Of a stretch of 64,000 nt of DNA, positions 6,505-46,173 are shown piece after piece. A model generated the notes under the pieces. The model had not been told where the DNA came from. It worked only from the letters and a program-made list of their open reading frames with translations, and did no database searches. Source of the DNA: Candidatus Parcubacteria bacterium (GTDB lineage: Bacteria; Patescibacteriota; Patescibacteriia; UBA1558; GWA2-36-10). Where the stretch lies: positions 64,390 through 128,389 of the forward strand of contig JABHSK010000007.1 of NCBI GenBank assembly GCA_018669975.1, read 5' to 3'. Positions within the stretch are counted from its first letter, which is position 1, and every line of letters starts with the position of its first letter. The position numbers and the translations under genes were made by a program.

Positions 6505-7254
6505 ATGTTTATGTTAGACATCAATAATTATAATTATAATGGTAAAAATTTAAAATCACCGTTAACGTATAATAAACTTAAGGGGATAATGTTTTTTTTA
6601 CCAATTTCATATTCTCGTGCCTCTGATATAATAAGTGGGTTAGAGGTCGTGCCAATTCGTATTTTACCACAAAAAGCTTTGCTTGGTTTGACGGTTTTTG
6701 ATTTTATCGATTCTCCTGTGGGACCATATAGGGAGTTGGCGTTAACAATACCGGTAGCATTAAACAATTTGTATAAACCGAATATTATCCCTTTACTTTT
6801 TCCAAAAGCACTTAGTAAGCATTTTGCTTTATATACAATTATGTTAGGGATGAATACGTTACATGGGCAGAAACATGCAAGTGAGATTTTTGGATACCCT
6901 GTATATAAAAATTTGTTAGATATTGATTTTAATTTCGACGGTGGTGTTGTAAGTGTAAAAATTAAGGATAATGGTAGTGATGTGTTAATTTTTAAAATTA
7001 ACGTAAACAAAAATTTTAAGGAGCATGAAAGAGTTTATCAGACTATTTTTCGAGTTGGCGAGGATACTAGATTGGTAGATTTATCTGCTTCAACAGTTGA
7101 ATCTGCAACCTATATGGACCGTTTAAATAATCTTCAACTTGGTAAGTCTTCTATTGCAAATAAAATCAATAATCTAGAACCATCAATGTTTAGTTTGCAA
7201 ACAAGTTTTTATAAAAATGCCATTGAAACACTAACTAATTCAGAGAATATATAA
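6505..7254 (+). CDS. acetoacetate decarboxylase (ADC)-like family protein
   Basis: Motif IDSPVGPYRELALTIPV resembles ADC HDTSGLGCYTESGQAIPV (D-S-x-x-G-x-Y-x-E-x4-IPV); ~250 aa consistent with ADC beta-cone fold; recalled alignment, not computed. Confidence 0.4.
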   Translation: MFMLDINNYNYNGKNLKSPLTYNKLKGIMFFLPISYSRASDIISGLEVVPIRILPQKALLGLTVFDFIDSPVGPYRELALTIPVALNNLYKPNIIPLLFPKALSKHFALYTIMLGMNTLHGQKHASEIFGYPVYKNLLDIDFNFDGGVVSVKIKDNGSDVLIFKINVNKNFKEHERVYQTIFRVGEDTRLVDLSASTVESATYMDRLNNLQLGKSSIANKINNLEPSMFSLQTSFYKNAIETLTNSENI

Positions 7255-7260
7255 AATATA

Positions 7261-10092
7261 ATGGGAATTGTTGTTTATTTTAAAATCGCCTTCATACTTG
7301 GAAGTATCCTATCATTGGGAATTTGGTGGCTTTTATTTGTTAAAAATAGAGCAAGTTTACGTAATAGGATTTTTGGTATCACTTCTTTAATGACCGCCAT
7401 ATGGAGTATTGGTTTTTTTGGATTAACAAGTGCTAACTCGTTAATCTCAGCAAGTTTATCACGGTGGTTTATGGAGGCTGGTTCAATTTTTATACCTGCA
7501 CTCTGGTACCATTTTATTTTTACACATTTAAACTTAAATAAGGAGCATTTCAAGAGAATACGTTTAATGTATGCTATTAGCGCAGTATTATGGGTATTAA
7601 ATATTCTAGATTTATTTATACCGGGATTATTTTCTAGTGGCATGTATCAGAAGCTATTTTTTCAATATTATCCAGGCGGTGGATTAGGATATTATCTTTT
7701 CTTTATCTATTTTGCGTTTGTTGCAGTGTACACAGTTTTTTATTTGCACAGGTATTTAAAGAGAAGGTCAGGGATGCAAAAAGAACAAATACGTTTTATT
7801 CTATTAGCCGCTTATTTTGGATTTGGTGGTGGAGGAATGACATTTTTAGTAACCTTTGGAATAGAAATACCACCATTCGGAATTTTTTTCTTTGCATTTT
7901 ATCCTATTGTTATTGCTTATGCAATTGTGAAGTATAGATTAATGAATATCCGGCTACTTATTACGCGTAGTATTTTATACGCAGTTTTAGTTGGTGCAGT
8001 AGCTAGTTTTTTCGCCCTATCAGTATTTGTGGTTGGTAATACTATTGGTGGTAATACTCAAACAAGTAAAATATTTACATATATTATCACCTCACTTATA
8101 GTGGTGGTATTTTTAGAGCCAGTCAAACGCACTTGGGCCAAAGTGACGGACAAGATTTTTTACAAAGATAAGATTGATTATCAAGAAGTCTTACAAGAGG
8201 TTGGCCTCGTAGTGGCTAGGGAAATCGATTTAGAAAAATTATTACAAAATTCTATTATTCTTTTGGCCGAGAAGTTAAAGATAAAAGAGGTCTCTGTTCT
8301 AGTGCCGACAAATAATCATTTTAATTTATTGACTAGCTCTCAACAAGGTAAGAGCAATTCTTCTTTGTCACAGGAGTTTATAGATTATCTACATTCAAAT
8401 AAAGACTTTGTTATAATAGAAGAATTGAATAGAAATAATGATAATGTACAAGAAAAGAAGTTAAGGTGTAAAATAGAGAGGTTTATCAAAGAGGCGGAGA
8501 TGCTAAATGCGGAAATGGTTATTCCGGTTATAGAGCAGGGAGAGTTAACAGCGGTGTTCTTATTTACCTCTAAGAGCTCCGGAGATTTATACGGTGATCA
8601 AGATATAGATTTCTTTAGAGTATTAATGCCACAGATAGCTACAGCTATCGAAAAATCTAAGCTCTATGAAGAAGTTGAAGAATTTAACCGTGAACTGCAA
8701 GCTAAAGTAGGGGAGAGAACTAAGAGTTTGCAGGAGGTTAATGCAACTCTGGAGGAGCGCAATAGATTTTTGACTACTATGCAAGCAGTGACTAATATGA
8801 TTAGTCGTACGCTAGATTTAAAGAAAGTCAATCAGATGATAGCCAATAGTATTGCCAGTGAGTTGGGATACGTAGGTGGTATCTTGAGCTTTATTGATTT
8901 TGAAGCCAACGTGCTTAGGGTTGGTGCTATTACTGACAATAAGGCTAACAGAAAATTGCTGAGTTTACTACCACAAGATCCTCATGAATATGAAACTAAA
9001 TTAGAACCAGGATTTAATAAGGGAGCTCAGACAGTTTTATTAGGTAAAATTAATTTCTCTGATAGAATGTCTGACTTTTTGTCACCGCCAGTAGATAAAG
9101 AAATAATGGATAAAATACAAGAAGAAGCGGGTGTTAAAACTATGGTGGGTGTGCCGATATTTTCGGAAGCCAAAATCATTGGTATTATCCATTTTTTATT
9201 ACAGGTAAAGCAAAAAAGAATTTCTTCTATGGACATCGAGATGATGGGAGCGCTGACTAATCAGGTTGGTATCGTGTCTCGTAACCTTAAATTGTATAAT
9301 AATTTACAGAAAGCAAATCTAGACATGCAAGAAGCAAATGTCCGTTTGCGTGAGTTAGATAAAGCTAAATCAGAATTTCTTTCTATTGCTTCCCATCAAC
9401 TTAGAACACCAATTTCAGCCATTAAAGGTTATTTGTCCATGATTATCGATGGAGATTTTGGTAAGGTGTCGCCGAATATTACTAAGGTGATTAAAGACTT
9501 GTTTGAGAGTGCTTCTAGATTGGCTAGATTAATCAATATTTTATTGAATGTATCTAGAATTGAATCTGGTCGACTTAAATTAGAAAAAAAGCCTATTCAA
9601 ATCAGTGATATGATTGATAGTGTAATAGTTGAGTTGATAAACCAAGCTACTCAAAAAGGTTTGAAATTGACTTATAAAAAACCAAAAGGAAATATTCCAA
9701 AGATTTTTGCTGACAGTGATAAGTTGAGGGAGGTGGTGCTTAATTTGGTAGATAATGCTATCAAGTATACACCAAAAGGTAAGGTGGAAATATCTCTAGA
9801 GTTTAATAAAGAACACATGACCTTTATGACCAAGGATTCTGGTATTGGTATTGATCCTAAAGAGGTTAAGAGTTTGTTTAGAAAATTTGTACGTGGTTCA
9901 GGTGTAGCACAGATCCATACTGGTGGTTCAGGTTTAGGTCTATTCATTGCTCAAAAGATTATCAAAGAACACAATGGGAAAGTTTGGGCAGAGAGCGAGG
10001 GTACAGGTAAGGGTTCAACATTTAAGTTTGTAGTGCCTTTGTATGATGAGTCAATGTTGAGTGATGGTGTTGATGAACACAAAGATAAATAA
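7261..10092 (+). CDS. sensor histidine kinase: N-terminal 7TM domain, GAF-like region(s), HisKA (SHQLRTPISAIKGY), HATPase_c (DNAIKYT...GGSGLGLFIAQKII); no receiver domain
   Basis: Clear H-box, N, G1 (DSGIGI), G2 (GGSGLGL) boxes; 6-nt gap from upstream gene. Confidence 0.85.
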   Translation: MGIVVYFKIAFILGSILSLGIWWLLFVKNRASLRNRIFGITSLMTAIWSIGFFGLTSANSLISASLSRWFMEAGSIFIPALWYHFIFTHLNLNKEHFKRIRLMYAISAVLWVLNILDLFIPGLFSSGMYQKLFFQYYPGGGLGYYLFFIYFAFVAVYTVFYLHRYLKRRSGMQKEQIRFILLAAYFGFGGGGMTFLVTFGIEIPPFGIFFFAFYPIVIAYAIVKYRLMNIRLLITRSILYAVLVGAVASFFALSVFVVGNTIGGNTQTSKIFTYIITSLIVVVFLEPVKRTWAKVTDKIFYKDKIDYQEVLQEVGLVVAREIDLEKLLQNSIILLAEKLKIKEVSVLVPTNNHFNLLTSSQQGKSNSSLSQEFIDYLHSNKDFVIIEELNRNNDNVQEKKLRCKIERFIKEAEMLNAEMVIPVIEQGELTAVFLFTSKSSGDLYGDQDIDFFRVLMPQIATAIEKSKLYEEVEEFNRELQAKVGERTKSLQEVNATLEERNRFLTTMQAVTNMISRTLDLKKVNQMIANSIASELGYVGGILSFIDFEANVLRVGAITDNKANRKLLSLLPQDPHEYETKLEPGFNKGAQTVLLGKINFSDRMSDFLSPPVDKEIMDKIQEEAGVKTMVGVPIFSEAKIIGIIHFLLQVKQKRISSMDIEMMGALTNQVGIVSRNLKLYNNLQKANLDMQEANVRLRELDKAKSEFLSIASHQLRTPISAIKGYLSMIIDGDFGKVSPNITKVIKDLFESASRLARLINILLNVSRIESGRLKLEKKPIQISDMIDSVIVELINQATQKGLKLTYKKPKGNIPKIFADSDKLREVVLNLVDNAIKYTPKGKVEISLEFNKEHMTFMTKDSGIGIDPKEVKSLFRKFVRGSGVAQIHTGGSGLGLFIAQKIIKEHNGKVWAESEGTGKGSTFKFVVPLYDESMLSDGVDEHKDK

Positions 10093-20771: not shown

Positions 20772-20912
20772 ATCAATCAAATATTGATACCGCAGACAGT
20801 GGGTTATTTAGCTAGTATTAGCTAAGTTATAAATCCTACCGAGGTGCCAAAAAGTAATTTTTAGGTAGTCTGCGGCTCTAATTCGCAGATTTTTTGTTTA
20901 AATAACAAATAT
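20772..20912 (+). ncRNA. ribosomal protein L10 (rplJ) leader-like structured 5'UTR with attenuator hairpin
   Basis: Long-range stem CCGCAGAC (20789-20796)/GTCTGCGG (20868-20875) enclosing ~70 nt, followed by hairpin TCTGCG-N9-CGCAGA + T6 immediately upstream of rplJ start. Confidence 0.5.
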
Positions 20913-31186: not shown

Positions 31187-31261
31187 GGCCCCATCGTCTA
31201 GTGGCTAGGACGCCAGGTTCTCATCCTGGTAACCGGAGTTCGATTCTCCGTGGGGTCACCA
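31187..31261 (+). tRNA. tRNA-Glu (anticodon CUC), CCA encoded
   Basis: Cloverleaf: acceptor GGCCCCA/TGGGGTC, D-arm GTC-TAGTGGCTAG-GAC, anticodon arm CCAGG-TTCTCAT-CCTGG (anticodon CTC, U33, A37), T-arm CGGAG-TTCGATT-CTCCG, discriminator A, CCA. Confidence 0.8.
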
Positions 31262-35375: not shown

Positions 35376-35520
35376 AAAATTATCAAGAGTGCGGTGAGAG
35401 ATTTGGCTCGACGACCCGTCAGCAACCTGTCCTATTTTGGATAAGGTGCTAAGTCCAACCCTATGCAGGGAAAGATGGTGTATTTATCATTGACTTCCTT
35501 GCCGTGGAAGTTTTTTAATT
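35376..35520 (+). ncRNA. SAM-I (S-box) riboswitch with terminator expression platform, upstream of metK
   Basis: TATCAAGAGTGCGGTGAGAGATTTGGCTCGACGACCCGTCAGCAACC ... GGTGCTAAGTCC...GCAGGGAAAGATGGTG matches S-box consensus (yUAUCAAGAGnGGnGGAGGGAnnGGCCCnAUGAAnCCCnGCAACC...GGUGCUAAUUCCnGCAG...GAAAGAUGAG); terminator CTTCC-N8-GGAAG + T6 at 35494-35516. Confidence 0.85.
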
Positions 35521-35536: not shown

Positions 35537-36547
35537 ATGTTAAAAACAGCAGAAAATGTTAGCTTTGGTCACCCAGATAAGGTTTGTGATCAGATATCAG
35601 ATGCTATTTTAGATGAATGTCTAAAGCAGGACCCTCGTAGTCGAGTGGCAGTGGAGGCATTGGGTGGTCATGGTAAATTAAGTATTATGGGTGAGGTGAC
35701 TACCAATGCAAAGTTTGATGCCGCTGAGATTGCTAGGAAAATTTATCAGGAGATTGGTTACGAAGATAATCTAGACATTTTAGTAAACATTACTACCCAA
35801 AGTTCAGACATTGCTATGGGAGTAGATACTGGTGGCGCCGGTGACCAGGGTATTATGGTTGGTTATGCTTGTGATGAGACAGAAGAACTTTTACCATTAG
35901 AGCATGTGTTAGCAACTCGTTTAATTCGCAAATTGGAAGATGTGCGTTTAGCTGGTCAGTCTGAATTGGCTAAGTATCTTTTGCCAGACAGTAAAGCGCA
36001 AGTTACCTTAGATGGAAAGCAGGTAGACACAGTCGTTGTATCTACTCAACATCAGGATGATGTAGATTTTGACAAGTTGAAGAAGTTGGTTGAAGAAGAG
36101 GTTGTTAGACCAATTGTTCCTCAAGCTAATAATATTTATGTTAATCCAACTGGTCTTTTTGTTCAAGGTGGTTTTGAGGCAGATACTGGATTGACCGGGC
36201 GCAAGATTACAGCAGATAATTATGGTCCACAGGTTCCAGTAGGTGGAGGAGCGTTTTCTGGTAAAGATGCCACCAAGGTAGATAGATCAGCTGCTTACAT
36301 GGCACGTTATTTAGCTACTGAATATTTAAAGAAATATAATGCTAAAGAAGTAATTGTAAAATTAGCCTACGCCATTGGTAGACCGCAGCCAGTCATGGCT
36401 ACGGCTAATGTTGATGGGAAAAATGTAGAAATTAATGGTTATGATTTAAGTCCGGCTGGTATTATAGAAAAACTTAATTTAAGAAAACCACAATTTAGAG
36501 ACCGAGCTAGGTTTGGTTTCTTTTTGGACTTTGATATTGAGAATTAA
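35537..36547 (+). CDS. metK: S-adenosylmethionine synthetase, short form (336 aa)
   Basis: N-terminal SFGHPDKVCDQISDAILD (MetK GHPDK motif), GGGAFSGKD P-loop-like motif. Confidence 0.85.
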   Translation: MLKTAENVSFGHPDKVCDQISDAILDECLKQDPRSRVAVEALGGHGKLSIMGEVTTNAKFDAAEIARKIYQEIGYEDNLDILVNITTQSSDIAMGVDTGGAGDQGIMVGYACDETEELLPLEHVLATRLIRKLEDVRLAGQSELAKYLLPDSKAQVTLDGKQVDTVVVSTQHQDDVDFDKLKKLVEEEVVRPIVPQANNIYVNPTGLFVQGGFEADTGLTGRKITADNYGPQVPVGGGAFSGKDATKVDRSAAYMARYLATEYLKKYNAKEVIVKLAYAIGRPQPVMATANVDGKNVEINGYDLSPAGIIEKLNLRKPQFRDRARFGFFLDFDIEN

Positions 36548-37149: not shown

Positions 37150-39255
37150 CTACCTTTTATACACAAAGATGGTAGTGACTCCATTGTCGATGAGTATTTT
37201 CTCATCAGCAGTTAGAGTGGCTTGATTGATGGCTTGTTTGGCACTGTGCCAATAATTATTTACTACAAAATATAATTGATCTACCTCAGCCTTGTCCATG
37301 GCATTGATAGCCTCTTCACGACTAGCATTTGTTTCAATCATGTTGAGATAATTTTGGTAAATATTATCTACTCCCAGGGGCATAGAGTAGTAGAAGTTGT
37401 CATTATAATAATTTGCAAAGCCAAATTCTGAGATAGCTGCCACACCAATCATTTGGTTAGCTAGAACTATATAGGGAGTCTCGCTGGCGTGTTCGTCTAT
37501 CAGGTTGACTGCCTTGATGTCACTCTGAGTAACATTTATACTTTTGGTGTTACTGTGTCGATCATATGTTGGGTAGGCAAAATATAAACTGACTGATATT
37601 ACAATTACAGTGATTACCATAATCCAGATTTTTTGAAAGATGCTTTTTTCTTTGTTGAGAGAGTCTTTGAATAAAAAGTAAATGCTAGTTAGAAATATTG
37701 GCAACAGAGTCAAAGCAATTAAATATATAATTCTGTTTATATAATCAAATTTTTGATAGTCAATTTGTAGATTGAATGACAAGAATATTTTGGCTAATAA
37801 ATAATTGATTAACAGTACACCAGTAAAGAGTAAGTGGCGTCTAAAGAATATGAATTTATGCTCTTTAAAGATGAAGAGGAGGCCAATTAGGACCATTAGT
37901 AAATATAACCAAACCATATTACCACCTATATTGTGAACCATGTCTAGCGGAAAGCTAAAGCTGCTATGCCAAGTAATAGTTGGTATATCAAACAATGGCC
38001 AAATTTGGAAAGAGAATATTTGTGACCAGGAAAATCCATTTATTTTCTGGTACACAGCAAGTAATAGTGGTAGAGCGACACTGGATAATAATAAAGTTAT
38101 CACATAGGCCAGGTTTCTTAACCAGGGCTTTTTTTTGATACGCAGCACAGATAACATAGCTGCTAGTGATAGTAGTGGTATACCACTGAGCGGATGTATA
38201 GTTAGTGTCATGGCTGCTACAGTCCAAAGAAAATAAAGACTAATTTTTTTACGGTTGATCTCAGGTAAAATAAAAATAGTAAAAGCTACCAATAAATAGG
38301 AAAAACTTTGAGGAGTAGTCATGATAGCAAAGCCTATACCCACAAAAGTGCTCCACAGGGTGCTGATGTAGCTAGCCTTGAATGACCATTTAAATCCATA
38401 ACGCAAGCCATAGAAGATACTACTAGGCCAAAGTAGACTAAAGAATAACGGGAGTAGTATTTTATTGGCAGTAGATAGGTCGATTTGTGAGATTTGATGA
38501 AAGAAAATACTAATTCCATATTGCCCTGTATATAGCCATAGACGTGGTTGGATAGTGCCAGTGTCATTTATTATATTTAAAGCAGTTTGGTGAATGAATG
38601 AATCATAGCCATAGCCTATTTTATATAGGATAATAGCTATGCTGCTCATCAGTAGAAAATGCCAACTGATTAACATGATATTTTTGGCAGTTTTTTTGTG
38701 TAGAAGGGAGATAATTAATAGTATATTGCTTAGAATAAATAAAGCCCAGAATTTATAATTAAGTATTTCCCATGGTGAGCGTATTAAGCCCAAACTAGCC
38801 TTTTTGAATAAAGCTATAAAGAGTACAGCGTCAATTAAAAAAACAACCGTTGGTAGAATAATGTTACGGAGATTATTCAGGCCTAATTTACTAAGATCAA
38901 GTCCAGTGAGATAGTAGTGTTGACTATGTAATTTTAAAGAGAGGAGTTCTATGATAATTGGTATGGACAGTAGCAAAAATAAAAATACCCAGAGATTTAC
39001 TTGGTAAACATGATAAATCAATGTATAGGCTAGACTGATGTAGGAAGATATTAGTATTAAACCCAAAGCATTTTTTAATCCTTTGTGTATTTGTGGGTAG
39101 AAAATATCGGCTAGTTTTTTGCTATTTAGCCATAAATATAAAACAGTAAAAATAGCCCCAAGGATTGGGGAGTGCAACCAGTAGGCGTTGGCTGAGATAA
39201 CCAAAACAAGAATAATTTGCACGATAATATTCTGTTGTCTGCTAAAAGTAATCAT
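37150..39255 (-). CDS. large polytopic membrane protein, putative GT-C-type glycosyltransferase (YfhO/ArnT/PMT-like) with C-terminal extracytoplasmic domain
   Basis: >12 predicted TM helices over ~560 aa then ~140-aa soluble C-terminal domain; architecture only, no catalytic motif verified. Confidence 0.5.
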   Translation of the reverse strand: MITFSRQQNIIVQIILVLVISANAYWLHSPILGAIFTVLYLWLNSKKLADIFYPQIHKGLKNALGLILISSYISLAYTLIYHVYQVNLWVFLFLLLSIPIIIELLSLKLHSQHYYLTGLDLSKLGLNNLRNIILPTVVFLIDAVLFIALFKKASLGLIRSPWEILNYKFWALFILSNILLIISLLHKKTAKNIMLISWHFLLMSSIAIILYKIGYGYDSFIHQTALNIINDTGTIQPRLWLYTGQYGISIFFHQISQIDLSTANKILLPLFFSLLWPSSIFYGLRYGFKWSFKASYISTLWSTFVGIGFAIMTTPQSFSYLLVAFTIFILPEINRKKISLYFLWTVAAMTLTIHPLSGIPLLSLAAMLSVLRIKKKPWLRNLAYVITLLLSSVALPLLLAVYQKINGFSWSQIFSFQIWPLFDIPTITWHSSFSFPLDMVHNIGGNMVWLYLLMVLIGLLFIFKEHKFIFFRRHLLFTGVLLINYLLAKIFLSFNLQIDYQKFDYINRIIYLIALTLLPIFLTSIYFLFKDSLNKEKSIFQKIWIMVITVIVISVSLYFAYPTYDRHSNTKSINVTQSDIKAVNLIDEHASETPYIVLANQMIGVAAISEFGFANYYNDNFYYSMPLGVDNIYQNYLNMIETNASREEAINAMDKAEVDQLYFVVNNYWHSAKQAINQATLTADEKILIDNGVTTIFVYKR

Positions 39256-40078: not shown

Positions 40079-41425
40079 ATGACAAAACAAAAACAAAAAA
40101 TGCATGTAGTGGCAGTTGATATGGGCTATGGACACCAACGGGCGGCCTATCCATTTCTAGACAGTGCCTATAGAGACGTTATTAACGCCAACCACTACCA
40201 AGGTATCAGTAAGGCAGAACAAAATTCTTGGGAAAGTGGACGTAAATGGTATGAAATCATTTCCCGTTTTAAAGGGTTACCTTTTGTTGGTGAGGCGGCT
40301 TTTGCTATTATGGATCATTTTCAAAAGATTGATCCATTTTATCCTAAACGTGATCTCAGTAAACCATCTCAACAATTAAAGTATTTTCAAAAACAGATCA
40401 AGCGTGGCATGGGTAAGGACCTGATAGACGATCTCAATAAACGTATACCAAAAGGACACAAAACACCGTTACCATTTTTGGCTACTTTTTTTGTGCCAGC
40501 ATATTTTGCGGAATACTATGGCTATAAAGGTAAAATATATTGTGTGGTTTGTGATGCTGATGTAGCTCGTGCTTGGGCACCTTATTATTCTAAGACTAGT
40601 AAGATTGTTTATTTGGCTCCAAATAAGCGAACTAAATCTAGGCTGCAACTTTATGGTGTTAAATCTAGTAATATTCATGTGACAGGGTTTCCTTTACCCA
40701 AAGAGAATATAGGTGGTCCCAGTCAAAGGGTGGTCAAGGCTGATTTAAGAGATAGATTGTATAATTTAGATCCTAAAGGAGTCTATCGTAAAAAATATGC
40801 CAAACACATTGAAGATTATCTTTGTCCAACTAAAAACATTAAGAAGCCAAAGCGTCCATTGACTATTACTTTTGCAGTTGGTGGCGCTGGTGCCCAAAGA
40901 GAGTTGGGTATTACTTTGCTTAAGCGACTTCATAAGGATCTCAAGAAAAATAATATCCGTCTTAATTTGGTAGCTGGTGTACGTAATGATGTTTATCTTT
41001 ATTTTCAAAAGGCTCTCAAAGAATATTGTCTAGATAATTGTGGTGCTGTCAGGGTCATTTATGCAGAGGATAAAATGTCTTATTTTAAAGTGTTTAATAA
41101 AATATTGCGTAAAACTGATATTTTGTGGACCAAGCCATCTGAACTTACTTTCTATAGTGGTTTGGGTATTCCTATTATCATGTCAGAACCAATTGGATAT
41201 CAGGAAAGATATAATCGTGGTTGGCTATTTGCCATTGGTGCTGGTGTAGATAGTTTGAATCCAGAATATGTAGATGAGTGGTTATTTGATTGGTTAGATT
41301 CCGGTTGGTTAGCTGAAGCAGCTATGGAGGGATTCTTAGATGCTCCGAGAATGGGTGCTTATAATATTGAGAATATTGTCTTGCGTAATAAGATTAGTGA
41401 AATAGAAGATGTCCACTTGTTATAA
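40079..41425 (+). CDS. GT28 / MGDG-synthase-like glycosyltransferase (UgtP/diglucosyl-diacylglycerol synthase-like)
   Basis: N-terminal VDMGYGHQRAA (GxGH motif of MGDG_synth/MurG family); C-terminal TKPSELTFYSGLGIPIIMSEPIGYQERYNRGW parallels UgtP [34 protein letters not shown]. Confidence 0.55.
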   Translation: MTKQKQKMHVVAVDMGYGHQRAAYPFLDSAYRDVINANHYQGISKAEQNSWESGRKWYEIISRFKGLPFVGEAAFAIMDHFQKIDPFYPKRDLSKPSQQLKYFQKQIKRGMGKDLIDDLNKRIPKGHKTPLPFLATFFVPAYFAEYYGYKGKIYCVVCDADVARAWAPYYSKTSKIVYLAPNKRTKSRLQLYGVKSSNIHVTGFPLPKENIGGPSQRVVKADLRDRLYNLDPKGVYRKKYAKHIEDYLCPTKNIKKPKRPLTITFAVGGAGAQRELGITLLKRLHKDLKKNNIRLNLVAGVRNDVYLYFQKALKEYCLDNCGAVRVIYAEDKMSYFKVFNKILRKTDILWTKPSELTFYSGLGIPIIMSEPIGYQERYNRGWLFAIGAGVDSLNPEYVDEWLFDWLDSGWLAEAAMEGFLDAPRMGAYNIENIVLRNKISEIEDVHLL

Positions 41426-41428
41426 TCT

Positions 41429-42760
41429 ATGATAATAAAAAATCTTAAAATAAATTTTTACAAGAGCATCAAACAATCGATGGATCTTAGTTTGGATAGG
41501 GTCAATATTTTTATTGGTCAAAATAATAGTGGTAAGAGTAATATCTTGGATGCCATTGAATTTACTTTGAGTGAACACTCAGAGGACCACACTTTGTATT
41601 ATGAAAAATCAGATATAGATATCACGATTGAATTTACTGATCAAACACAAGCCAAATATAAATTACCGGGCAAGGAGGGAGTGCTCAGTCTTAAGGGTCA
41701 GCAAAAGCATCTTAATTTTCCAGGTGCTACTTTGCCAGACAACAAGGCTTTAACTCATATGCTGAGCACGCATTTTAAGAGACTAGATACAGAGGCTTTT
41801 ACAGACTTTGAGCAAATAGAAGAAGATTTTCAGGATCTATTTAATTATCCAAGTCAGTTGGATAGATTTAAAGAAATACTTAAACATCATTTTCCCAAGA
41901 TTTCTGCTACCAAAAATGCATTAGATATTCGTTATGAAAACGAGGGTTTATATGAAGGCAAGAGAAGAGTGACTATCGATAGGCTTGGTTCTGGCTTTCA
42001 GCGCATTTTCACAATGCTTTTGTATATTTTTCATCCTAAATATTCAATAGTGATGATTGGCGAGCCAGAAATTCATTTGCATCCAGCTATTGCCAAAAAA
42101 CTTCTTTGGGCTATGCAGAATAGCAATGCTGGTCAGATATTATTTACTACACATTCACCATTGTTTATTACACCGATGACTTTGCCACAGGTAGTAAGAG
42201 TGACTAAACATGAAAATACTACGCAGGCTTTTGCACTTTCGCAGGTTAAATATAACTACAAACGTCTAATACAAGAACTTAATGCAGACAATCTAGAGAT
42301 GTTTTTTACTGATGAGGTTGTTTTGGTGGAAGGTGTATCAGATAAATTATTGATTCGTGGTTTGATAGATAAGTTTTATCAAGGAGATAGAGCTATTAAA
42401 GTGATTCAAGCTCACGGTAAGGGTAATGTTAAAATATATGCAGATTTGTTAAAAATTTTTAAAATTTCTTTTACTGTTGTTTTGGATAAAGATGCTATAA
42501 AAAGTAATCATCTAAGAGAGTTGTTGCGGCATCTAGATATCCATATGCCACCGTTGAACACGGAAGATTTAATTGAGCAGCTCAAGAAGTATAGTATTTT
42601 TATTCTACCCAATGGAGATTTGGAGGCTAATTATCCACGCAAGTATCAGTTGGGAGATAGTAAATCACTCAATGCTTTGCATGCCGCTAATTTAGTTAGT
42701 GAAAAGGATTTTAATTCCAAGGTCATGGAAAATTTAAAAGCAATAATAGATAACTTATAA
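41429..42760 (+). CDS. OLD-family ATP-dependent endonuclease (ABC-type ATPase N-domain + C-terminal Toprim)
   Basis: Walker A GQNNSGKSN; Walker B/D-loop IVMIGEPEIHLHP; H-loop FTTHSPLF; Toprim-like EVVLVEGVSDKLLIRGL ... VVLDKDA; 3 nt after upstream gene. Confidence 0.6.
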   Translation: MIIKNLKINFYKSIKQSMDLSLDRVNIFIGQNNSGKSNILDAIEFTLSEHSEDHTLYYEKSDIDITIEFTDQTQAKYKLPGKEGVLSLKGQQKHLNFPGATLPDNKALTHMLSTHFKRLDTEAFTDFEQIEEDFQDLFNYPSQLDRFKEILKHHFPKISATKNALDIRYENEGLYEGKRRVTIDRLGSGFQRIFTMLLYIFHPKYSIVMIGEPEIHLHPAIAKKLLWAMQNSNAGQILFTTHSPLFITPMTLPQVVRVTKHENTTQAFALSQVKYNYKRLIQELNADNLEMFFTDEVVLVEGVSDKLLIRGLIDKFYQGDRAIKVIQAHGKGNVKIYADLLKIFKISFTVVLDKDAIKSNHLRELLRHLDIHMPPLNTEDLIEQLKKYSIFILPNGDLEANYPRKYQLGDSKSLNALHAANLVSEKDFNSKVMENLKAIIDNL

Positions 42761-42764
42761 AAAT

Positions 42765-43706
42765 ATGTCTTGGTTATTAGTAGCAGTTATAGCTTATTCT
42801 ATTTTAGCCGTTGTTAATGTAGCGGATAAATTTATGCTGGAAAAAGTTATTCCAGCGGCTAAGACCTACGCTTTTTTGGTAGGTGTTACTGGTTTACTTG
42901 TTTTTGTAGTTGCTCCATGGTTTTTGGAGTGGCCAGGCTTTAATTTATTTTTGTTAAATATAATTACGGGTGTGTTTTTTGCTGGTGGTTTATTGTTCTT
43001 GTATACAGCGCTTAGAGATGCAGAGGTGACCAAGATATTTACCTTGACTGGGGGGGCAGTACCGGTATTTATTATTTGGTTGTCTATTATATTTTTTCAC
43101 GAACGTTTTAGTCCGTGGCAATGGTTGGCAGTGTGCTTTTTGATTGCGGGTACAGTTATGATTTCCTGGGTTTCTGGGGAGCACGGAGTCTGGACTAGAA
43201 TTAAAGAATGGTTGCACATAAAGCATGATAAAAAAATACGCAGTATACTATTTGCAGTTCTAGCTGCTGCATGTTTTGCTATATTTTGGGTAGGCACCAA
43301 GTATGCTTACAACACTCAAGCATTTGTCAGTGCGTTTTTGTGGATTAGGCTGGGTACATTTTTGGCAGTAATTTTGATGTTGGTAAACGGAAATAGTCGT
43401 CGGGAAATTTTTGATGATTTGCAGCAATCAAATACTAATAAAGATAATAAGTTTATTTTTATGGGTGTTCAGGGCTTGGGAGCCATCGGGTCAGTTTTAC
43501 AAAATTATGCAGTCTCACTTGGCTCAGTAGCTTTAGTGACATCTTTGCAGGGTTTGCAGTATGCATTACTTTTGGTGATGAGTGCCATTGTGACCGCTTT
43601 CTTACCAAACATCATCAAGGAGTATAATCCTAGGAGAATTATTATTCAAAAGATTGTGGCAGTATTGATAATTGGTCTGGGGTTGTATTTTTTGGCTATT
43701 TATTAG
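42765..43706 (+). CDS. DMT-superfamily (EamA-like) permease
   Basis: ~10 TM helices in two repeated halves. Confidence 0.5.
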   Translation: MSWLLVAVIAYSILAVVNVADKFMLEKVIPAAKTYAFLVGVTGLLVFVVAPWFLEWPGFNLFLLNIITGVFFAGGLLFLYTALRDAEVTKIFTLTGGAVPVFIIWLSIIFFHERFSPWQWLAVCFLIAGTVMISWVSGEHGVWTRIKEWLHIKHDKKIRSILFAVLAAACFAIFWVGTKYAYNTQAFVSAFLWIRLGTFLAVILMLVNGNSRREIFDDLQQSNTNKDNKFIFMGVQGLGAIGSVLQNYAVSLGSVALVTSLQGLQYALLLVMSAIVTAFLPNIIKEYNPRRIIIQKIVAVLIIGLGLYFLAIY

Positions 43707-43710
43707 GAAC

Positions 43711-44721
43711 ATGAGGTTTAAAAAGAAAAAGAAACTAGTTATTTGGTTTATCATAATACTAATTGGTATTTGGTATTTTAAATTTGCCAGCCATCATCCA
43801 CATAAAATAGACCTGCAAGCCAAGGATGATTTTTGGGGTGTGACTTACTCACCTAAGTTTGCCTATGAGCTTGGTTTGGATTGGGAAGAGACTTATTTAG
43901 CCATGATTGATGATATTAAAGTAAGAAATGTTCGTCTACCTATCTATTGGGATCAAATAGAGGTCGAAGAAGGGCAATATGATTTTAGTGTTTATGATTA
44001 TATTCTTGATGAGGGTGCCAAACGAGATGTAGAGTTTGTAGTCAATGTCGGTTGGAGATTGCCGCGTTGGCCAGAATGTCATACGCCCCAGTGGGCAAAA
44101 GGAGAGGATTTAGATATTATCAAGGCCAAGTCTCTGTCTATGATTAAATTGGTTGTAGAAAGATATAAAGATAGACCCGAGATAGTAGCTTGGCAAGTAG
44201 AGAACGAGCCCTTGTTAGATTGGTTTGGAGAGTGTCCAGAGGGTGATGAAGATTTACTCAAGCAAGAAGTAGCGTTTGTGAAAGATATGGATGATAGGCC
44301 AATTATAATTTCTGCTTCCGGAGAATTAAGTGGTTGGCATAAGGAAGTGGAGATTGCGGATACTTTTGCTACTACCATGTATCGCGTAGTTTGGAATCCT
44401 TGGTTTAAATATTTTAGGTACCCTTTGCCAGCTTGGTTTTATAAATTAAAATTAGACTTAGCTGGTGCTAGCCCAGAACAGGCTATTGTCAGTGAGTTGC
44501 AGGCAGAGCCTTGGGTGCCCAATGGAACGTTAGATAATATTACTTTTGATGAATATGATAAATCATTTAGTCCAGAACAATTTAAGGCCAATTTGCAATT
44601 TGCTATTAATGTAGATTTCAAACAAACTTATCTATGGGGCATAGAATGGTGGTATCTACAAAAAGAAAAGGGTGATACTAGATATTGGGACATTGCCAGA
44701 GATATTTTTGCTAGGCAATAA
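43711..44721 (+). CDS. membrane-anchored glycoside hydrolase, clan GH-A (GH5/GH113-like)
   Basis: N-terminal TM; WQVENEP catalytic acid/base NEP motif typical of clan GH-A; start set to ATG 43711 after upstream stop. Confidence 0.5.
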   Translation: MRFKKKKKLVIWFIIILIGIWYFKFASHHPHKIDLQAKDDFWGVTYSPKFAYELGLDWEETYLAMIDDIKVRNVRLPIYWDQIEVEEGQYDFSVYDYILDEGAKRDVEFVVNVGWRLPRWPECHTPQWAKGEDLDIIKAKSLSMIKLVVERYKDRPEIVAWQVENEPLLDWFGECPEGDEDLLKQEVAFVKDMDDRPIIISASGELSGWHKEVEIADTFATTMYRVVWNPWFKYFRYPLPAWFYKLKLDLAGASPEQAIVSELQAEPWVPNGTLDNITFDEYDKSFSPEQFKANLQFAINVDFKQTYLWGIEWWYLQKEKGDTRYWDIARDIFARQ

Positions 44722-44778
44722 AAATATTGACATTTTACTTATTTAAAGGATAATAAACAAATAATTATATTTATTTAT

Positions 44779-46140
44779 ATGAGTTTTGAAAACACAGGAA
44801 AATCAAGCAAAAGGCAGGAGCCAAATACTTCAGCTGACAGTCCAGAAGCAGAACTTTCTGCAGAAACAGTAGAGGCTTTAATGGAGGCAGCTATTATTCA
44901 TGGTCAGAAGCATAATGAGGGTCAGAATGCTGTTATTTTTAGAGTACAGGTAAGCAAGTTGCCCGAAGAAGCTTTGCATCAAATTTTTACTGCCCAAGGT
45001 AAAGAGGTGCCAACTGGAAAGTTAGCTAGTAAAGTAATTAAGGTTTATGTTAGTGCGGCAGCATTAAACGAAGCCAATAATCATCAGGAGATATTTGACT
45101 TGGTGCAGGGACAAGATGATCAGGAGGGTATGGCTATAGTGCCAGAGCCACACGTCAATGCAGAACTAGCTATCAGGACAGATACCATGAAAGAAAGGTT
45201 GGTAGAAGCTGGCATTAGTGTCCAGCGCGATAAAGTTGGTGTGATGATGATGGATTTTGTTAAAGGAATTGATTTGATGACACATATTTACAGAGGGATT
45301 ATCAAGAATTTACCCGAAGAAGATTTTAAGATGATTTATCCGGATGCTAACATAATCAAGAAAGAGTTGGAGGAGAATCCAGACGCAGTAGATTTTGCTA
45401 GACTTGAAGAAGCTATTGTTTTTGCTTTAGCTATTCAGGGTTCTGATGCTGGTGAGAGTACAGAGGATAGGATTAGGCGTGACTTAGGAAATAGAAGTAG
45501 GGTATTTGATTCTTTCCAAAAGCTAGGTTTGACTATCAATCCAGAAATTTTAGCTAGAGTTAGAAAGACAGTGTCATTATTAAATAGTAATAATATATAT
45601 CATAATGATTTGCATGAACGAAACATTATGATAGAGACAGATGATGAGGGTGAATTAGTAGATGTATTTTTAATTGATTTTGACAAGGTCTCTGGCACCA
45701 AGGATGAATCTTGGGGTGGAGATATGGGTGTGGTGTCTGAATATGGTAAGTTAACAAAAACAAAGGAAGAGCTTGTACAAGAGAAAAAGGATAAAGAAAT
45801 ACAAGATGCAATTGATTTTGTTGAAAAGGTTAAGAAGCACAGGAAAAAAGAATGGGAGGAGTTTGAAGAAAGTATTAGGGATTTGATAGGTAAGAAATAT
45901 CCGAAGATATTAGAGTACTTAGATAAAGATATTCAACATTTTGCTAATACCCATGGTAATATTTCTCCAGAACAATTGGCAGCTGGTATTATTTTAGAGC
46001 TATCCAAAACAGAGCCAAAATTAGCTAGAGATTTTATTGAATATAAGCGTAGTAATCCAGGTGGAGGAGGAAGGCCGTTTATAAATTTATTAATTAAACT
46101 TTTGCCACATATCGAGGTTGAAGATGAGGCAGAAGAATAG
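44779..46140 (+). CDS. atypical protein-kinase-like (PKL/APH-like) domain protein
   Basis: KVIKVYV (beta3 Lys), catalytic-loop-like HNDLHERNIMI (HxDLHxxN), LIDFDKV (DFG-equivalent); no signal peptide; acidic termini. Confidence 0.45.
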   Translation: MSFENTGKSSKRQEPNTSADSPEAELSAETVEALMEAAIIHGQKHNEGQNAVIFRVQVSKLPEEALHQIFTAQGKEVPTGKLASKVIKVYVSAAALNEANNHQEIFDLVQGQDDQEGMAIVPEPHVNAELAIRTDTMKERLVEAGISVQRDKVGVMMMDFVKGIDLMTHIYRGIIKNLPEEDFKMIYPDANIIKKELEENPDAVDFARLEEAIVFALAIQGSDAGESTEDRIRRDLGNRSRVFDSFQKLGLTINPEILARVRKTVSLLNSNNIYHNDLHERNIMIETDDEGELVDVFLIDFDKVSGTKDESWGGDMGVVSEYGKLTKTKEELVQEKKDKEIQDAIDFVEKVKKHRKKEWEEFEESIRDLIGKKYPKILEYLDKDIQHFANTHGNISPEQLAAGIILELSKTEPKLARDFIEYKRSNPGGGGRPFINLLIKLLPHIEVEDEAEE

Positions 46141-46144
46141 ACTA

Positions 46145-46173
46145 TTGACAAATCTAATATTTATGTGTATAAT
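46145..46173 (+). promoter_or_regulatory. perfect consensus promoter TTGACA-17-TATAAT
   Basis: TTGACA 46145-46150, spacer 17, TATAAT 46168-46173. Confidence 0.55.

What the first reader, a model, noticed from the sequence alone, without database searches (positions are those of the whole stretch)
40079..43706. Standalone OLD-family ATPase-Toprim nuclease (candidate anti-phage defence gene) translationally coupled to a glycolipid-type glycosyltransferase
ORF 41429-42760 has the ABC-ATPase motifs typical of OLD/AAA_21 proteins (GQNNSGKSN; IGEPEIHLHP; TTHSP). Its C-terminal segment matches the Toprim core of OLD nucleases (VVLVEGVSDKLLI, then a DKD motif). Established knowledge: OLD-family proteins (class 1 standalone; class 2 = Gabija GajA with UvrD-like GajB; PARIS AriA/B) are phage-defence nucleases. 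Here no helicase partner follows (next is a DMT permease), so it resembles a class-1 OLD. It starts 3 nt after a GT28/MGDG-synthase-like gene, an unusual context. At 443 aa it is shorter than P2 Old (~586 aa).
Basis: partly seen in the sequence, partly recalled or inferred. Interest (0 to 1): 0.6.

Follow-up and report, generated by a model that had tools for sequence, protein, structure and literature searches.

The report
Compact OLD nuclease in CPR operon
This is a real but unusually small OLD-family ATPase-nuclease gene that was inserted long ago into a cell-envelope operon of one group of ultra-small (Patescibacteria) bacteria and has been kept there ever since, so its link to the neighbouring glycosyltransferase is positional and an anti-phage role is plausible but unproven.

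Summary
ORF 41429-42760 (443 aa) is an OLD-family ABC-ATPase + Toprim protein by Pfam, PADLOC and fold (top hit TsOLD 6p74). The Toprim catalytic residues are invariant in 119 orthologs. No helicase, reverse transcriptase or AriB partner occurs in about 55 related loci.

- The upstream gene has a GT-B fold (Pfam DUF6938), but GT28/MGDG-synthase membership was not met.
- Its family is CPR-wide and far larger than the OLD clade. Relatives at 63% GT identity or less have DUF6938->EamA->GH-like->GT2 with no OLD. So OLD was inserted into a pre-existing envelope operon.
- Every locus with GT identity of about 64% or more carries OLD in that slot.
- OLD co-diverges with its neighbours (Mantel r 0.75-0.85; 18 of 25 shared tree splits), at an ordinary rate and with host-like codon usage.

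The protein is closest to the uncharacterised CPR/DPANN clade "U2" of Yang et al. 2025, not to classes 1-5. It lacks about 85 residues relative to TsOLD. The Walker B acidic residue is Gly here, and varies D/N/S/G across orthologs.

The most likely function is a nucleotide-gated two-metal nuclease. A fixed single-gene defence role is slightly favoured over a Cran1-like housekeeping role.

The parts
40079..41425 (+). DUF6938 protein (448 aa). It has a GT-B glycosyltransferase-like fold and is the first gene of the conserved envelope operon. It provides context and is not an obligate partner of OLD.
   Evidence: Pfam gives only PF22053 DUF6938, 8.6e-14. The AF2 model has pLDDT 84.4. Foldseek hits include UGT708C1, WaaG, MGD1, UDP-GlcNAc 2-epimerases and MurG. 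The family has at least 7,590 homolog clusters. It occurs without OLD in L085, L086, L087, L088 and L092.
41429..42760 (+). Compact OLD-family protein (443 aa). The N-terminal ABC ATPase covers about aa 1-275 and the C-terminal OLD-type Toprim nuclease about aa 292-443.
   Evidence: Orthologs of about 420-450 aa are found at 49-87% identity.
41516..41539 (+). Walker A / P-loop, G30-QNNSGK36-S37.
   Evidence: G30, G35 and K36 are invariant in 119 orthologs.
42047..42085 (+). Walker B / D-loop segment, IVMIG211-E212-P-E214-IHL-H218-P. G211 occupies the position of TsOLD E276 (Walker B acid). H218 corresponds to D-loop H283.
   Evidence: The register comes from the phmmer alignment to 6p74 and the residue numbering in PMC7049728. 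Position 211 is D60/N34/S21/G3/E1 across orthologs. E212, E214 and H218 are invariant.
42146..42160 (+). H-loop, TTH242SP.
   Evidence: H242 is invariant and aligns to TsOLD H310.
42329..42343 (+). Toprim glutamate motif, E301-GVS-D305. These are the equivalents of metal A ligand E377 and metal B ligand D381 of TsOLD.
   Evidence: Alignment to 6p74. Both residues are 100% invariant. Residue roles are from PMC7049728.
42485..42493 (+). Toprim DxD motif, D353-K-D355. These are the equivalents of metal A ligands D431/D433 of TsOLD.
42617..42625 (+). D397-L-E399, the inferred second metal-B motif, matching S478-x-E480 in TsOLD and D541-x-E543 in P2 Old.
   Evidence: E399 is invariant and position 397 is D in 76% of orthologs. 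The equivalence rests on motif and spacing only, because sequence alignments stop at the DxD.
42765..43706 (+). EamA/DMT-family permease (313 aa), the ancestral second gene of the operon.
   Evidence: Pfam EamA 6.7e-13. It directly follows DUF6938 in the OLD-less loci L085, L086 and L092.
43711..44721 (+). Membrane-anchored TIM-barrel glycoside-hydrolase-like protein (about 337 aa from the ATG at 43711). It is the last gene of the conserved 4-gene block.
   Evidence: Weak Pfam hits to GH42, GH5 and GH10. The ATG lies 4 nt after the EamA stop. It is conserved in all related loci.

Best explanation
ORF 41429-42760 encodes a compact, single-polypeptide OLD-family enzyme: an SMC/Rad50-like ABC nucleotide-binding domain fused to an OLD-type Toprim nuclease. 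It belongs to the small, uncharacterised CPR/DPANN clade called 'U2' by Yang et al. 2025.

The gene was inserted once, between the DUF6938 (GT-B fold) gene and the EamA gene of an older Patescibacteria envelope operon. This happened in the ancestor of a Komeilibacteria-related clade, and the gene has been inherited vertically and co-expressed with that operon since. These evolutionary steps are shown.

Inferred mechanism: the protein oligomerises through its ATPase heads and a reduced insertion domain. It binds ATP through the invariant Walker A Lys, signature Gly, D-loop His and H-loop His. It uses nucleotide occupancy mainly as a switch rather than as fuel, because the Walker B acidic residue is dispensable in this clade and is Gly in this protein. 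That switch gates a two-metal Toprim active site (E301, D305, D353, D355, E399) that nicks or cleaves nucleic acid. DNA is the most likely substrate, but tRNA is possible, as for P2 Old.

Inferred biological role: a constitutively present, single-gene immune or genome-surveillance nuclease (class-1-like OLD) that has become fixed in this lineage. It is not a functional partner of the glycosyltransferase.
For: Identity:
- Pfam, PADLOC, PDB sequence and fold matches all point to the OLD family.
- K36, E212, E214, H218, H242, E301, D305, D353, D355, E399 and K412 are 100% invariant in 119 orthologs.
- Residue roles are taken from TsOLD and P2 mutagenesis (PMC7049728).

Clade:
- BLAST to the CPR members of U2 gives 31-37% identity over about 360-400 aa, E 1e-57 to 4e-74.
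- U3 and U4 give only 1e-10 to 1e-16. TsOLD gives 4e-12.
- Only about 30 full-length compact clusters exist among 1.84 billion representatives.

Insertion and vertical descent:
- OLD-less operons DUF6938->EamA->GH->GT2 occur at 63% GT identity or less.
- OLD is present in all 36 OLD-selected loci where the contig reaches far enough, and in 4 of 4 loci chosen independently from the GT side at 65-71% identity.
- Mantel r for OLD against neighbours is 0.75-0.85, p = 2e-4.
- The OLD and GT trees share 18 of 25 bipartitions, against 0.3 expected at random.
- GC, GC3 and codon usage match the neighbours.
- Spacers within the operon are 3-4 nt, with no internal terminator above chance.

Defence-like features:
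- All characterised bacterial OLDs are anti-phage (PMC10568477, PMC12392090, PMC13261556).
- The clade is accessory at phylum scale and sits at three different loci in different lineages.
- The insertion junction also collects pilin-like, CAP-domain and IS-like genes in relatives.
- U2 mixes bacteria and archaea.

Switch idea:
- Position 211 is D/N/S/G, while TsOLD E276A has no ATPase activity.
- ATP binding regulates GajA and YbjD (PMC10568477, PMC13261556).
Against: - There is no experimental data for any U2 member.
- Long-term fixation, co-divergence with housekeeping neighbours, an ordinary substitution rate and the absence of any defence or mobile neighbour are unusual for defence genes. 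They match the pattern that led to the discovery of the non-defence OLD Cran1.
- Nuclease activity, substrate, oligomeric state and the effect of G211 are all inferred.
- The metal-B and basic-residue mapping in the C-terminus could not be aligned.
- U2 membership rests on BLAST to truncated sequences, not on a phylogeny.
Confidence: 0.5

Rival explanations
1. Cran1-like housekeeping enzyme. In this lineage the OLD protein would be a domesticated nickase/ATPase that acts on the cell's own chromosome, for example in replication, segregation, repair or cell-cycle progression. It would be co-transcribed with envelope-growth genes and would not be an immune gene.
For: - The gene is fixed in every sampled member of the clade, sits at the same position, co-diverges with its neighbours and evolves at an ordinary rate.
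- More distant orthologs also sit in stable housekeeping contexts: next to glycogen metabolism genes, GerM-domain genes or MetRS.
- No defence genes lie nearby.
- The catalytic nuclease residues are invariant.
- There is a precedent. Sulfolobales Cran1 (class 5) is vertically inherited, in an operon with a membrane-protein gene, essential, and not antiviral (PMC12796447).
Against: - The clade is small, about 30 clusters at 50% identity.
- It is absent from most Patescibacteria that carry the same operon. So it is not needed for CPR biology in general.
- It occupies different loci in different lineages and shares a clade with DPANN archaea, which implies past transfers.
- E. coli ybjD shows that a chromosomally fixed OLD can still give anti-phage phenotypes (PMC13261556).
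Confidence: 0.28
2. True functional module with the glycosyltransferase, permease and hydrolase. OLD would work together with DUF6938, EamA and the GH-like protein. Examples would be an ATPase that regulates or energises envelope glycan or glycolipid synthesis, or a restriction-like nuclease paired with a sugar-based DNA modification made by the GT-B enzyme.
For: The four genes are separated by 3-4 nt, or overlap, in many genomes. They stay together even where the outer flanks differ, as in L004, L026, L027 and L030-L033. T4-type DNA glucosyltransferases are also GT-B enzymes (general knowledge, not tested here).
Against: - DUF6938-EamA-GH-GT2 exists and is tightly packed without OLD in many Patescibacteria.
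- The DUF6938 family has at least 7,590 clusters against 350 hits for OLD.
- OLD orthologs at 31-37% identity have none of these neighbours.
- Other genes or gaps separate GT and OLD in L006, L089, L091 and L037/L044.
- The intact Toprim nuclease site has no obvious role in glycan synthesis.
Confidence: 0.05
3. Selfish or addictive nuclease. The gene would persist because losing it is harmful, for example as a toxin-like activity held in check by ATP or by a host factor. Benefit to the host would not be the reason for its retention.
For: Class 1 OLDs are toxic when deregulated: P2 Old kills recBC cells, and YbjD K35A is cytotoxic (PMC7049728, PMC13261556). The gene was inserted at a junction that accumulates other insertions.
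Against: No antitoxin-like partner is conserved. The gene shows strong purifying selection across the whole protein and clade-wide retention at an ordinary rate, which does not require addiction.
Confidence: 0.07
4. ABC-transporter ATPase subunit serving the downstream permease.
For: The protein has an ABC-type nucleotide-binding fold and lies next to a membrane permease.
Against: The ATPase is of the SMC/Rad50/OLD type (AAA_15/AAA_21/SMC_N) and carries a fused Toprim nuclease. EamA/DMT carriers are secondary transporters with no ATPase subunit (established knowledge). EamA occurs without OLD in relatives.
Confidence: 0.01

Closest known systems
Clade U2 of OLD-family proteins (Yang et al. 2025, EMBO Rep, PMC12796447, Dataset EV1). 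It is uncharacterised and contains CPR bacteria and DPANN archaea.
   Same: These are the best matches outside the protein's own orthologs. Parcubacteria OIP80295 gives 37% identity over 376 aa at E 4e-74. Patescibacteria MFA5030183 and the Kerfeldbacteria entries give E 1e-57 to 1e-62. They share the 'QELNADN.EMFFAD.V.LVEG.SD' Toprim entry motif and the EPE.HLHP motif.
   Different: Identity to the listed members is only 31-37%. The DPANN members carry a much longer insert in the ATPase domain. Nothing is known about function or context for U2. My placement is by BLAST against sequences truncated at about 400 aa, not by phylogeny.
Class 1 OLD nucleases: Thermus scotoductus OLD (PDB 6P74), P2 Old, Vibrio cholerae OLD and E. 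coli YbjD/OldB.
   Same: All are single polypeptides with no dedicated partner gene. All have an ABC ATPase plus an OLD-type Toprim and no class 2 C-terminal helical domain. TsOLD is the top sequence and fold hit. The metal A triad and the first metal B residue are conserved. YbjD is likewise a chromosomally fixed gene.
   Different: - It is 85 residues shorter than TsOLD (528 aa) and about 140 shorter than P2 Old. About 61 of the missing residues lie before the signature region, where TsOLD has its four-helix dimerisation domain. The model here shows only two helices, 127-154.
- The Walker B acid (E276 in TsOLD, D299 in P2, both essential) is Gly here and variable across the clade.
- Similarity to class 1 is remote, 17% identity in the structural alignment.
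- It sits inside a housekeeping operon and is inherited vertically, whereas class 1 is rare and patchy: 0.45% of genomes according to Patel and Seed 2025, as cited in PMC13261556.
Class 5 OLD / Cran1 of Sulfolobales (PMC12796447).
   Same: Both are lineage-restricted, vertically inherited OLD proteins in a conserved putative operon with a membrane-protein gene. Neither has defence neighbours, and both have intact ATPase and nuclease motifs.
   Different: They are in different domains of life and different clades (U11 against U2). Cran1 is essential and cell-cycle regulated by experiment, whereas nothing has been tested here. Here the operon demonstrably pre-dates the OLD gene.
Class 2 OLD, GajA of Gabija.
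   Same: Same fold (Foldseek E about 1e-15) and strong PADLOC GajA profile hits. GajA is a precedent for ATP binding acting as an inhibitory switch rather than as fuel (PMC10568477).
   Different: No GajB/UvrD-like helicase is adjacent in any of about 55 loci. The protein is about 130 aa shorter than GajA (575-578 aa).

Membership tests
OLD family (ATPase-Toprim nucleases) | N-terminal SMC/Rad50-type ABC ATPase domain with a Walker A lysine | tested here: met
   AAA_15 at 2.2e-25, AAA_21 at 1.2e-23 and SMC_N at 1.6e-10. G30, G35 and K36 are invariant in 119 orthologs.
OLD family (ATPase-Toprim nucleases) | C-terminal OLD-type Toprim domain | tested here: met
   PF20469 scores 50.2 bits against a 23.2 cut-off, over residues 292-355. 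The PADLOC Old profile gives 8.9e-37.
OLD family (ATPase-Toprim nucleases) | Metal A ligands: Toprim Glu plus DxD (TsOLD E377, D431, D433) | tested here: met
   E301, D353 and D355 align to these residues and are 100% invariant.
OLD family (ATPase-Toprim nucleases) | Metal B ligands (TsOLD D381, S478, E480) and a nearby basic residue (R487; K550 in P2) | tested here: inconclusive
   D305 aligns to D381. D397-x-E399 and R404/K405 or the invariant K412 are plausible by motif and spacing. Sequence alignments end at the DxD, and model coordinates could not be inspected.
OLD family (ATPase-Toprim nucleases) | Overall fold like solved OLD proteins | tested here: met
   Foldseek gives 6p74 at E 4e-17, GajA at about 1e-15 and Eco8 OLD at 4e-14, ahead of SMC and Rad50 heads.
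ATP-hydrolysing OLDs (TsOLD/P2 Old type). This is a catalytic property, not a family-defining feature. | Acidic Walker B residue (TsOLD E276, P2 D299), which is required for hydrolysis | tested here: not met
   The window protein has G211 at this position (register). Across orthologs it is D 50%, N 29%, S 18%, G 2.5% and E 1%. The neighbouring E212 and E214 are invariant.
Class 1 OLD | Single gene with no dedicated partner (context definition) | tested here: met
   No helicase, RT or AriB lies next to it in the window or in about 55 related loci. However, it is embedded in an operon and is not an isolated gene.
Class 1 OLD | Falls within the class 1 clade of the OLD phylogeny | tested here: inconclusive
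   It is much closer to U2 members (183-228 bits) than to TsOLD (49 bits) or P2 Old (50 bits). No tree was built.
Class 2 OLD (Gabija GajA) | [quoted passage not shown] | tested here: not met
   The neighbours are DUF6938 and EamA. No helicase appears in any related locus.
Class 3 OLD (retron effector) | Adjacent reverse transcriptase and retron ncRNA | tested here: not met
   No RT domain is found among the neighbours. There is no Rfam hit near the gene in the window or in 7 relatives.
Class 4 OLD (PARIS AriA/AriB) | ATPase and Toprim split into two genes | tested here: not met
   Both domains are in one 443-aa ORF.
Class 5 OLD (Cran1, clade U11) | Membership of the Sulfolobales clade, and essentiality with a cell-cycle role | not testable with these tools
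   Only the evolutionary pattern is shared: vertical descent and an operon with a membrane-protein gene. The protein is bacterial and closest to U2.
Clade U2 (Yang et al. 2025) | Groups with the listed U2 sequences | tested here: met
   blastp gives E 4e-74 to 8e-57 to the four CPR members of U2 and about 5e-27 to the DPANN members. U3 and U4 give 1e-10 to 1e-16. This is similarity only, not a phylogeny.
GT28 / MGDG-synthase-type glycosyltransferase (for ORF 40079-41425) | Match to GT28 or MGDG-synthase family models | tested here: not met
   No GT28 or MGDG_synth Pfam hit at E up to 0.1, only DUF6938. NCBIfam diglucosyl-DAG synthase scores 19.8 bits against a cut-off of 500.
GT-B fold glycosyltransferase superfamily (for ORF 40079-41425) | Two-Rossmann-domain GT-B fold | tested here: met
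   The AF2 model has pLDDT 84.4. Foldseek hits to UGTs, WaaG, MGD1 (18% identity, TMt 0.58) and MurG are at E 1e-6 to 1e-4. UDP-GlcNAc 2-epimerases, which share the fold, are also hit. Transferase activity is not shown.
ABC transporter | ABC_tran-type NBD with a cognate ABC membrane domain | tested here: not met
   There is no ABC_tran hit. The NBD is SMC/OLD-type with a fused Toprim, and the neighbour is a DMT carrier.

The most novel reading that the evidence does not exclude
This could be a bacterial counterpart of archaeal Cran1. In that reading, an OLD-family nickase in a Komeilibacteria-related CPR lineage has been domesticated for a housekeeping job on the cell's own chromosome, such as replication, segregation or cell-cycle control. 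It would be hard-wired into an envelope-biogenesis operon so that chromosome processing and envelope growth are co-expressed, and its ATPase would have been reduced to a nucleotide sensor. More broadly, clade U2 could be a shared CPR/DPANN adaptation to the ultra-small episymbiotic lifestyle, not an immune gene.
Probability: 0.22. Interest if true: 0.65.

Novelty: new variant of a known kind. Interest (0 to 1): 0.4.

Why it matters
OLD proteins are treated almost by default as phage-defence nucleases, and tools such as PADLOC would flag this gene as 'Old/GajA'. This case shows a bacterial OLD clade that behaves like a stable lineage gene. It arose from a single insertion into a housekeeping operon, is fixed across a family- or order-level clade, diverges at the same rate as its neighbours, and appears to have a relaxed ATP-hydrolysis site alongside a perfectly conserved nuclease site.

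If it is defensive, it would be one of the few innate immune genes stably kept in the minimal genomes of CPR bacteria, and a naturally minimised OLD (443 aa) suited to mechanistic work. If it is not defensive, it extends the Cran1 precedent for non-immune OLD function to bacteria.

It is also a caution against reading function from tight gene spacing. The 'translational coupling' to the glycosyltransferase is an accident of where the gene landed.

Tried and rejected
- ABC-transporter ATPase for the EamA permease: rejected on domain type, the fused Toprim and the OLD-less operons.
- Obligate GT-OLD module or a sugar-based restriction-modification idea: rejected as the main reading. DUF6938 is CPR-wide without OLD, and distant OLD orthologs lack these neighbours.
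- Retron-like ncRNA partner: no Rfam family near OLD in the window or in 7 relatives. The GC-rich inserts downstream of OLD in some relatives are poorly conserved in the middle and absent from the window.
- Recent horizontal acquisition: GC, GC3 and codon usage cannot be told apart from the neighbours, and the composition profile is flat.
- Phage origin: only remote phage hits, with P2 old at 24% identity over 39% of the query. The best PHROG is of unknown function.
- Defence island: PADLOC on the four neighbours gave nothing except weak kinase-type hits for ORF 44779-46140.
- Extending the TsOLD alignment through the C-terminus with a profile failed, so the metal-B and basic-residue mapping stays inferred.
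- Literature: no paper in the library links CPR with OLD proteins or mentions DUF6938.
- The promoter-like hit at 41397-41426 inside the end of the GT gene ends 2 nt before the OLD ATG, so it cannot serve that start. Terminator-like hits in the operon are at chance level.

Full report
**1. Observation**

The three ORFs exist exactly as described: a 448-aa protein at 40079-41425, a 443-aa protein at 41429-42760, and a 313-aa protein at 42765-43706. The junctions are TAA+3 nt+ATG between GT and OLD and TAA+4 nt+ATG between OLD and EamA. The next gene most likely starts at the ATG at 43711, 4 nt after the EamA stop, not at the TTG at 43672 that the mechanical ORF list gives.

The 443-aa protein matches Pfam AAA_15 (2.2e-25), AAA_21 (1.2e-23) and OLD-like_TOPRIM PF20469 (3.8e-13), all above their curated cut-offs. 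In PADLOC it matches Old (8.9e-37) and many GajA profiles. Its best solved relative by sequence is the class 1 OLD of Thermus scotoductus, 6p74. The alignment covers Walker B through the Toprim DxD. An AlphaFold2 model built on 20 orthologs is confident (pLDDT 87.3, pTM 0.85). Its best structural matches are 6p74 (E 4e-17), then GajA, then retron Eco8 OLD, ahead of SMC and Rad50 heads.

**2. Catalytic anatomy**

I used the residue roles established for TsOLD and P2 Old (PMC7049728) and the HMMER register. The mapping is as follows.

| Role | TsOLD residue | This protein |
|---|---|---|
| Walker A | K34 | K36 |
| D-loop | H283 | H218 |
| H-loop | H310 | H242 |
| Metal A | E377, D431, D433 | E301, D353, D355 |
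| Metal B (first ligand) | D381 | D305 |

All of these, plus E212, E214, E399 and K412, are invariant in 119 full-length orthologs.

The second metal-B motif (S478-x-E480 in TsOLD, D541-x-E543 in P2) is probably D397-L-E399. The catalytic basic residue is probably R404/K405 or K412. These two assignments are inferred from motif and spacing only, because sequence alignments stop at the DxD even with a profile.

One position departs from the rule. The Walker B acidic residue is E276 in TsOLD, where E276A abolishes ATPase activity, and D299 in P2 Old, where D299A abolishes killing. It is Gly211 in this protein. Across orthologs it is D 50%, N 29%, S 18%, G 2.5% and E 1%. So the nuclease site and the ATP-binding elements are under strict constraint, while this hydrolysis residue is not.

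Relative to TsOLD (528 aa) the protein lacks about 85 residues. About 61 of them lie before the signature region, where TsOLD carries its four-helix dimerisation insert. The model shows only two helices there, at residues 127-154.

**3. Who else has it**

A search of 5.8 billion proteins found 350 hits. The top 120 are all 420-460 aa, 49-87% identical, and from Patescibacteria (Komeilibacteria, Parcubacteria, 'Nomurabacteria'). An exhaustive profile search of 1.84 billion cluster representatives found only about 30 full-length compact clusters (404-540 aa, above 195 bits). Below that, scores fall to ordinary 600-700-aa OLDs that match only the core. The clade is therefore small.

The Cran1 paper (PMC12796447) lists classes 1-4, a new class 5, and uncharacterised clades U1-U10. 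Its Dataset EV1 has a clade U2 made of CPR bacteria and DPANN archaea. The window protein matches the CPR members of U2 at 31-37% identity over about 360-400 aa (E 1e-57 to 4e-74). It matches the DPANN members at about 5e-27, and U3 and U4 at only 1e-10 to 1e-16. I therefore place it with U2, by similarity and not by phylogeny. Phage relatives are remote, with P2 old at 24% identity over 39% of the query.

**4. Context and history**

A scan of GTDB species representatives plus contig look-ups gave about 55 related loci. tblastn of the window's neighbours against them gives three tiers.

- Orthologs at 49% identity or more (36 loci): every one keeps DUF6938 -> OLD -> EamA -> GH-like wherever the contig reaches. 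Most also keep metK, HU, a 700-aa membrane protein and two small ORFs upstream, and an S8/FG-GAP peptidase, GT2 and epimerases downstream. Eight of these loci keep only the four-gene core in otherwise different surroundings.
- The ~42% group: keeps OLD-EamA-GH-like, with a CAP-domain gene between DUF6938 and OLD.
- The 31-37% group: has quite different but again stable housekeeping contexts. The gene sits between GerM-domain genes and a GDE/glycogen synthase/GH57 cluster, or directly after metRS.

No helicase, reverse transcriptase, AriB or other defence gene is adjacent anywhere.

The decisive result comes from the other direction. The DUF6938 family is very large (at least 7,590 clusters, 59-90% identical). 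In loci where DUF6938 is 63% identical or less to the window's copy, the operon reads DUF6938 -> EamA -> GH-like -> GT2 with 3-12 nt spacers and no OLD (L085, L086, L092). In L087 and L088, DUF6938 is instead followed by a pilin-like gene.

So OLD was inserted once into a pre-existing operon and is fixed in the descendant clade. The same junction also holds pilin-like genes (L006, L089, L029), a CAP-domain gene, an IS-like ORF and GC-rich non-coding inserts in various relatives. This marks it as an insertion-tolerant site.

**5. Mode of inheritance**

Pairwise distances of OLD correlate with those of GT, EamA and GH-like as strongly as those three correlate with each other. Over 32 loci, Mantel r is 0.85-0.90. 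Over 28 loci, after removing deep outliers and near-duplicates, r is 0.745-0.848 with p = 2e-4. Neighbour-joining trees of OLD and GT share 18 of 25 bipartitions. Label shuffles give a mean of 0.3 and a maximum of 4.

The mean p-distance of OLD is 0.455. It lies between those of GH-like (0.426) and EamA (0.484), so there is no sign of arms-race acceleration. GC (0.336), GC3 (0.295) and codon usage (cosine 0.947) match the neighbours. No terminator above chance lies within GT..GH. Strong promoter-like sites occur only after the block, at 44727-44754 and 46145-46173.

**6. The neighbours**

The DUF6938 protein has a confident GT-B fold (pLDDT 84.4). Foldseek hits at E 1e-6 to 1e-4 include plant UGTs, WaaG, MGD1 (18% identity), MurG and UDP-GlcNAc 2-epimerases. 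It has invariant G-loop-like motifs. It does not match the GT28 or MGDG-synthase models. 'GT-B-fold, probably a nucleotide-sugar enzyme' is as far as the evidence goes.

EamA is a DMT carrier. The fourth gene encodes a membrane-anchored TIM-barrel GH-like protein. Together with the GT2, GtrA and epimerase genes nearby, this is an envelope glycan or glycolipid locus.

**7. Interpretation**

- **Shown:** family identity, an intact nuclease site, the relaxed Walker B position, the absence of partner genes, a single insertion into an older operon, and fixation with co-divergence.
- **Inferred:** that the protein is an active, oligomeric, two-metal nuclease gated by nucleotide binding rather than driven by hydrolysis. 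GajA and YbjD are precedents for regulation by ATP binding (PMC10568477, PMC13261556). The substrate is also inferred. DNA nicking or cleavage is expected from TsOLD, VcOLD and Cran1, and tRNA cleavage is possible as in P2 Old (PMC12445682, title and abstract only).

For the biological role I slightly favour a fixed single-gene immune or surveillance nuclease. The reasons are:
- every characterised bacterial OLD is anti-phage;
- the clade is accessory at phylum scale;
- it has occupied three different loci;
- it shares a clade with archaea;
- it landed in an insertion hotspot.

The main rival is a Cran1-like housekeeping role. The fixation, the ordinary substitution rate and the housekeeping contexts support it. 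These tools cannot separate the two. A functional GT-OLD module and an ABC-transporter role are effectively excluded.

**8. Novelty and score**

The kind (OLD nuclease) is known, and the clade has been drawn in a published tree, but nothing about it has been described. Three features make it a new variant, not a new kind:
- the minimised architecture;
- the dispensable Walker B acid alongside an invariant nuclease site;
- the demonstrable insertion and fixation inside a CPR envelope operon.

Interest is moderate, at 0.4. It cautions against automatic 'defence' labels and against operon-based inference, and it is a candidate bacterial parallel to Cran1. It is not a surprise at the level of mechanism.

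Noticed in passing
L013:8330-8831, L016:8345-8844, L018:8345-8844, L019:8345-8789, L021:8330-8751 (also longer gaps at L003:9336-10306, L028:8336-9891, L090 about 7173-8725): Several relatives have a GC-rich (0.43-0.47 against about 0.35), ORF-poor insert of 420-500 bp between OLD and EamA that the window lacks. It starts with a terminator-like hairpin (AAAAAAATCTAGC...GCTAGAAAAAAA). It ends with a conserved TTTGTCAAGGG...TTTTGGCTAATATTAGCCAAAA promoter-like and palindrome segment. The middle is poorly conserved. No Rfam family matches. The minus strand of the L016 copy folds with z = -3.5 (0 of 100 shuffles) and the plus strand with z = -1.6. It could be an unknown structured RNA or a decayed element.
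   Followed up: partly
window 40079-41425; family: The DUF6938 protein is among the most conserved proteins in this neighbourhood. It has at least 7,590 clusters, 59-90% identity across Patescibacteria, and more than 120 invariant columns in 25 diverse sequences. It has a GT-B fold. Every source calls it 'hypothetical protein', and no paper in the library mentions DUF6938. A CPR-wide, probably essential envelope enzyme of unknown function may deserve study more than the OLD gene does.
   Followed up: partly
L006:6446-6997, L089:5832-6413, L029:9173-10288 and 8564-8998(-), L044:5568-6914, L087:6471-6911, L088:6433-6876: The junction just downstream of DUF6938 is an insertion hotspot. In different genomes it holds type IV pilin-like (N_methyl) genes, a CAP-domain secreted protein, a 144-aa Zn-ribbon/IS-like ORF, or the OLD gene.
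   Followed up: partly
window 44779-46140: A 453-aa protein has a weak Kdo/WaaP-type protein-kinase-like core (Pfam 3e-5; weak PADLOC MkoA and PD-T4-6 hits). It sits between the GH-like gene and the S8 peptidase. An 11-of-12 promoter-like site lies at 44727-44754. Among about 40 syntenic loci, a homolog (29% identity) is seen only in L013 and L021, so it is a variable insertion.
   Followed up: no
window 35377-35481; also L028:1068-1166 and L036:1038-1138: A SAM riboswitch (RF00162, 65 bits) lies upstream of metK (35537-36547), and the same arrangement is found in relatives. An L10 leader is at 20772-20905 and tRNA-Glu(CTC) at 31187-31261.
   Followed up: no
window 37150-39255 (- strand): A 701-aa polytopic membrane protein with no Pfam hit is conserved in synteny (42-64% identity) upstream of the operon in most relatives. 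It is followed on the + strand by a 168-aa and a 65-aa membrane ORF. It may be a GT-C-like or other envelope enzyme.
   Followed up: no
L006, L013, L016, L019, L020, L023, L024, L026, L028-L031 and other record titles: Many GTDB representative records that carry this Patescibacteria-specific syntenic block are titled 'uncultured Gammaproteobacteria bacterium' (TPA assemblies). The titles look like taxonomic mislabels.
   Followed up: no
window 43672-43711: The mechanical ORF list starts the GH-like gene at TTG 43672, overlapping EamA by 35 nt. The ATG at 43711 (MRFKKKKK..., 4 nt after the EamA stop) fits the ortholog lengths (337-341 aa) better.
   Followed up: yes
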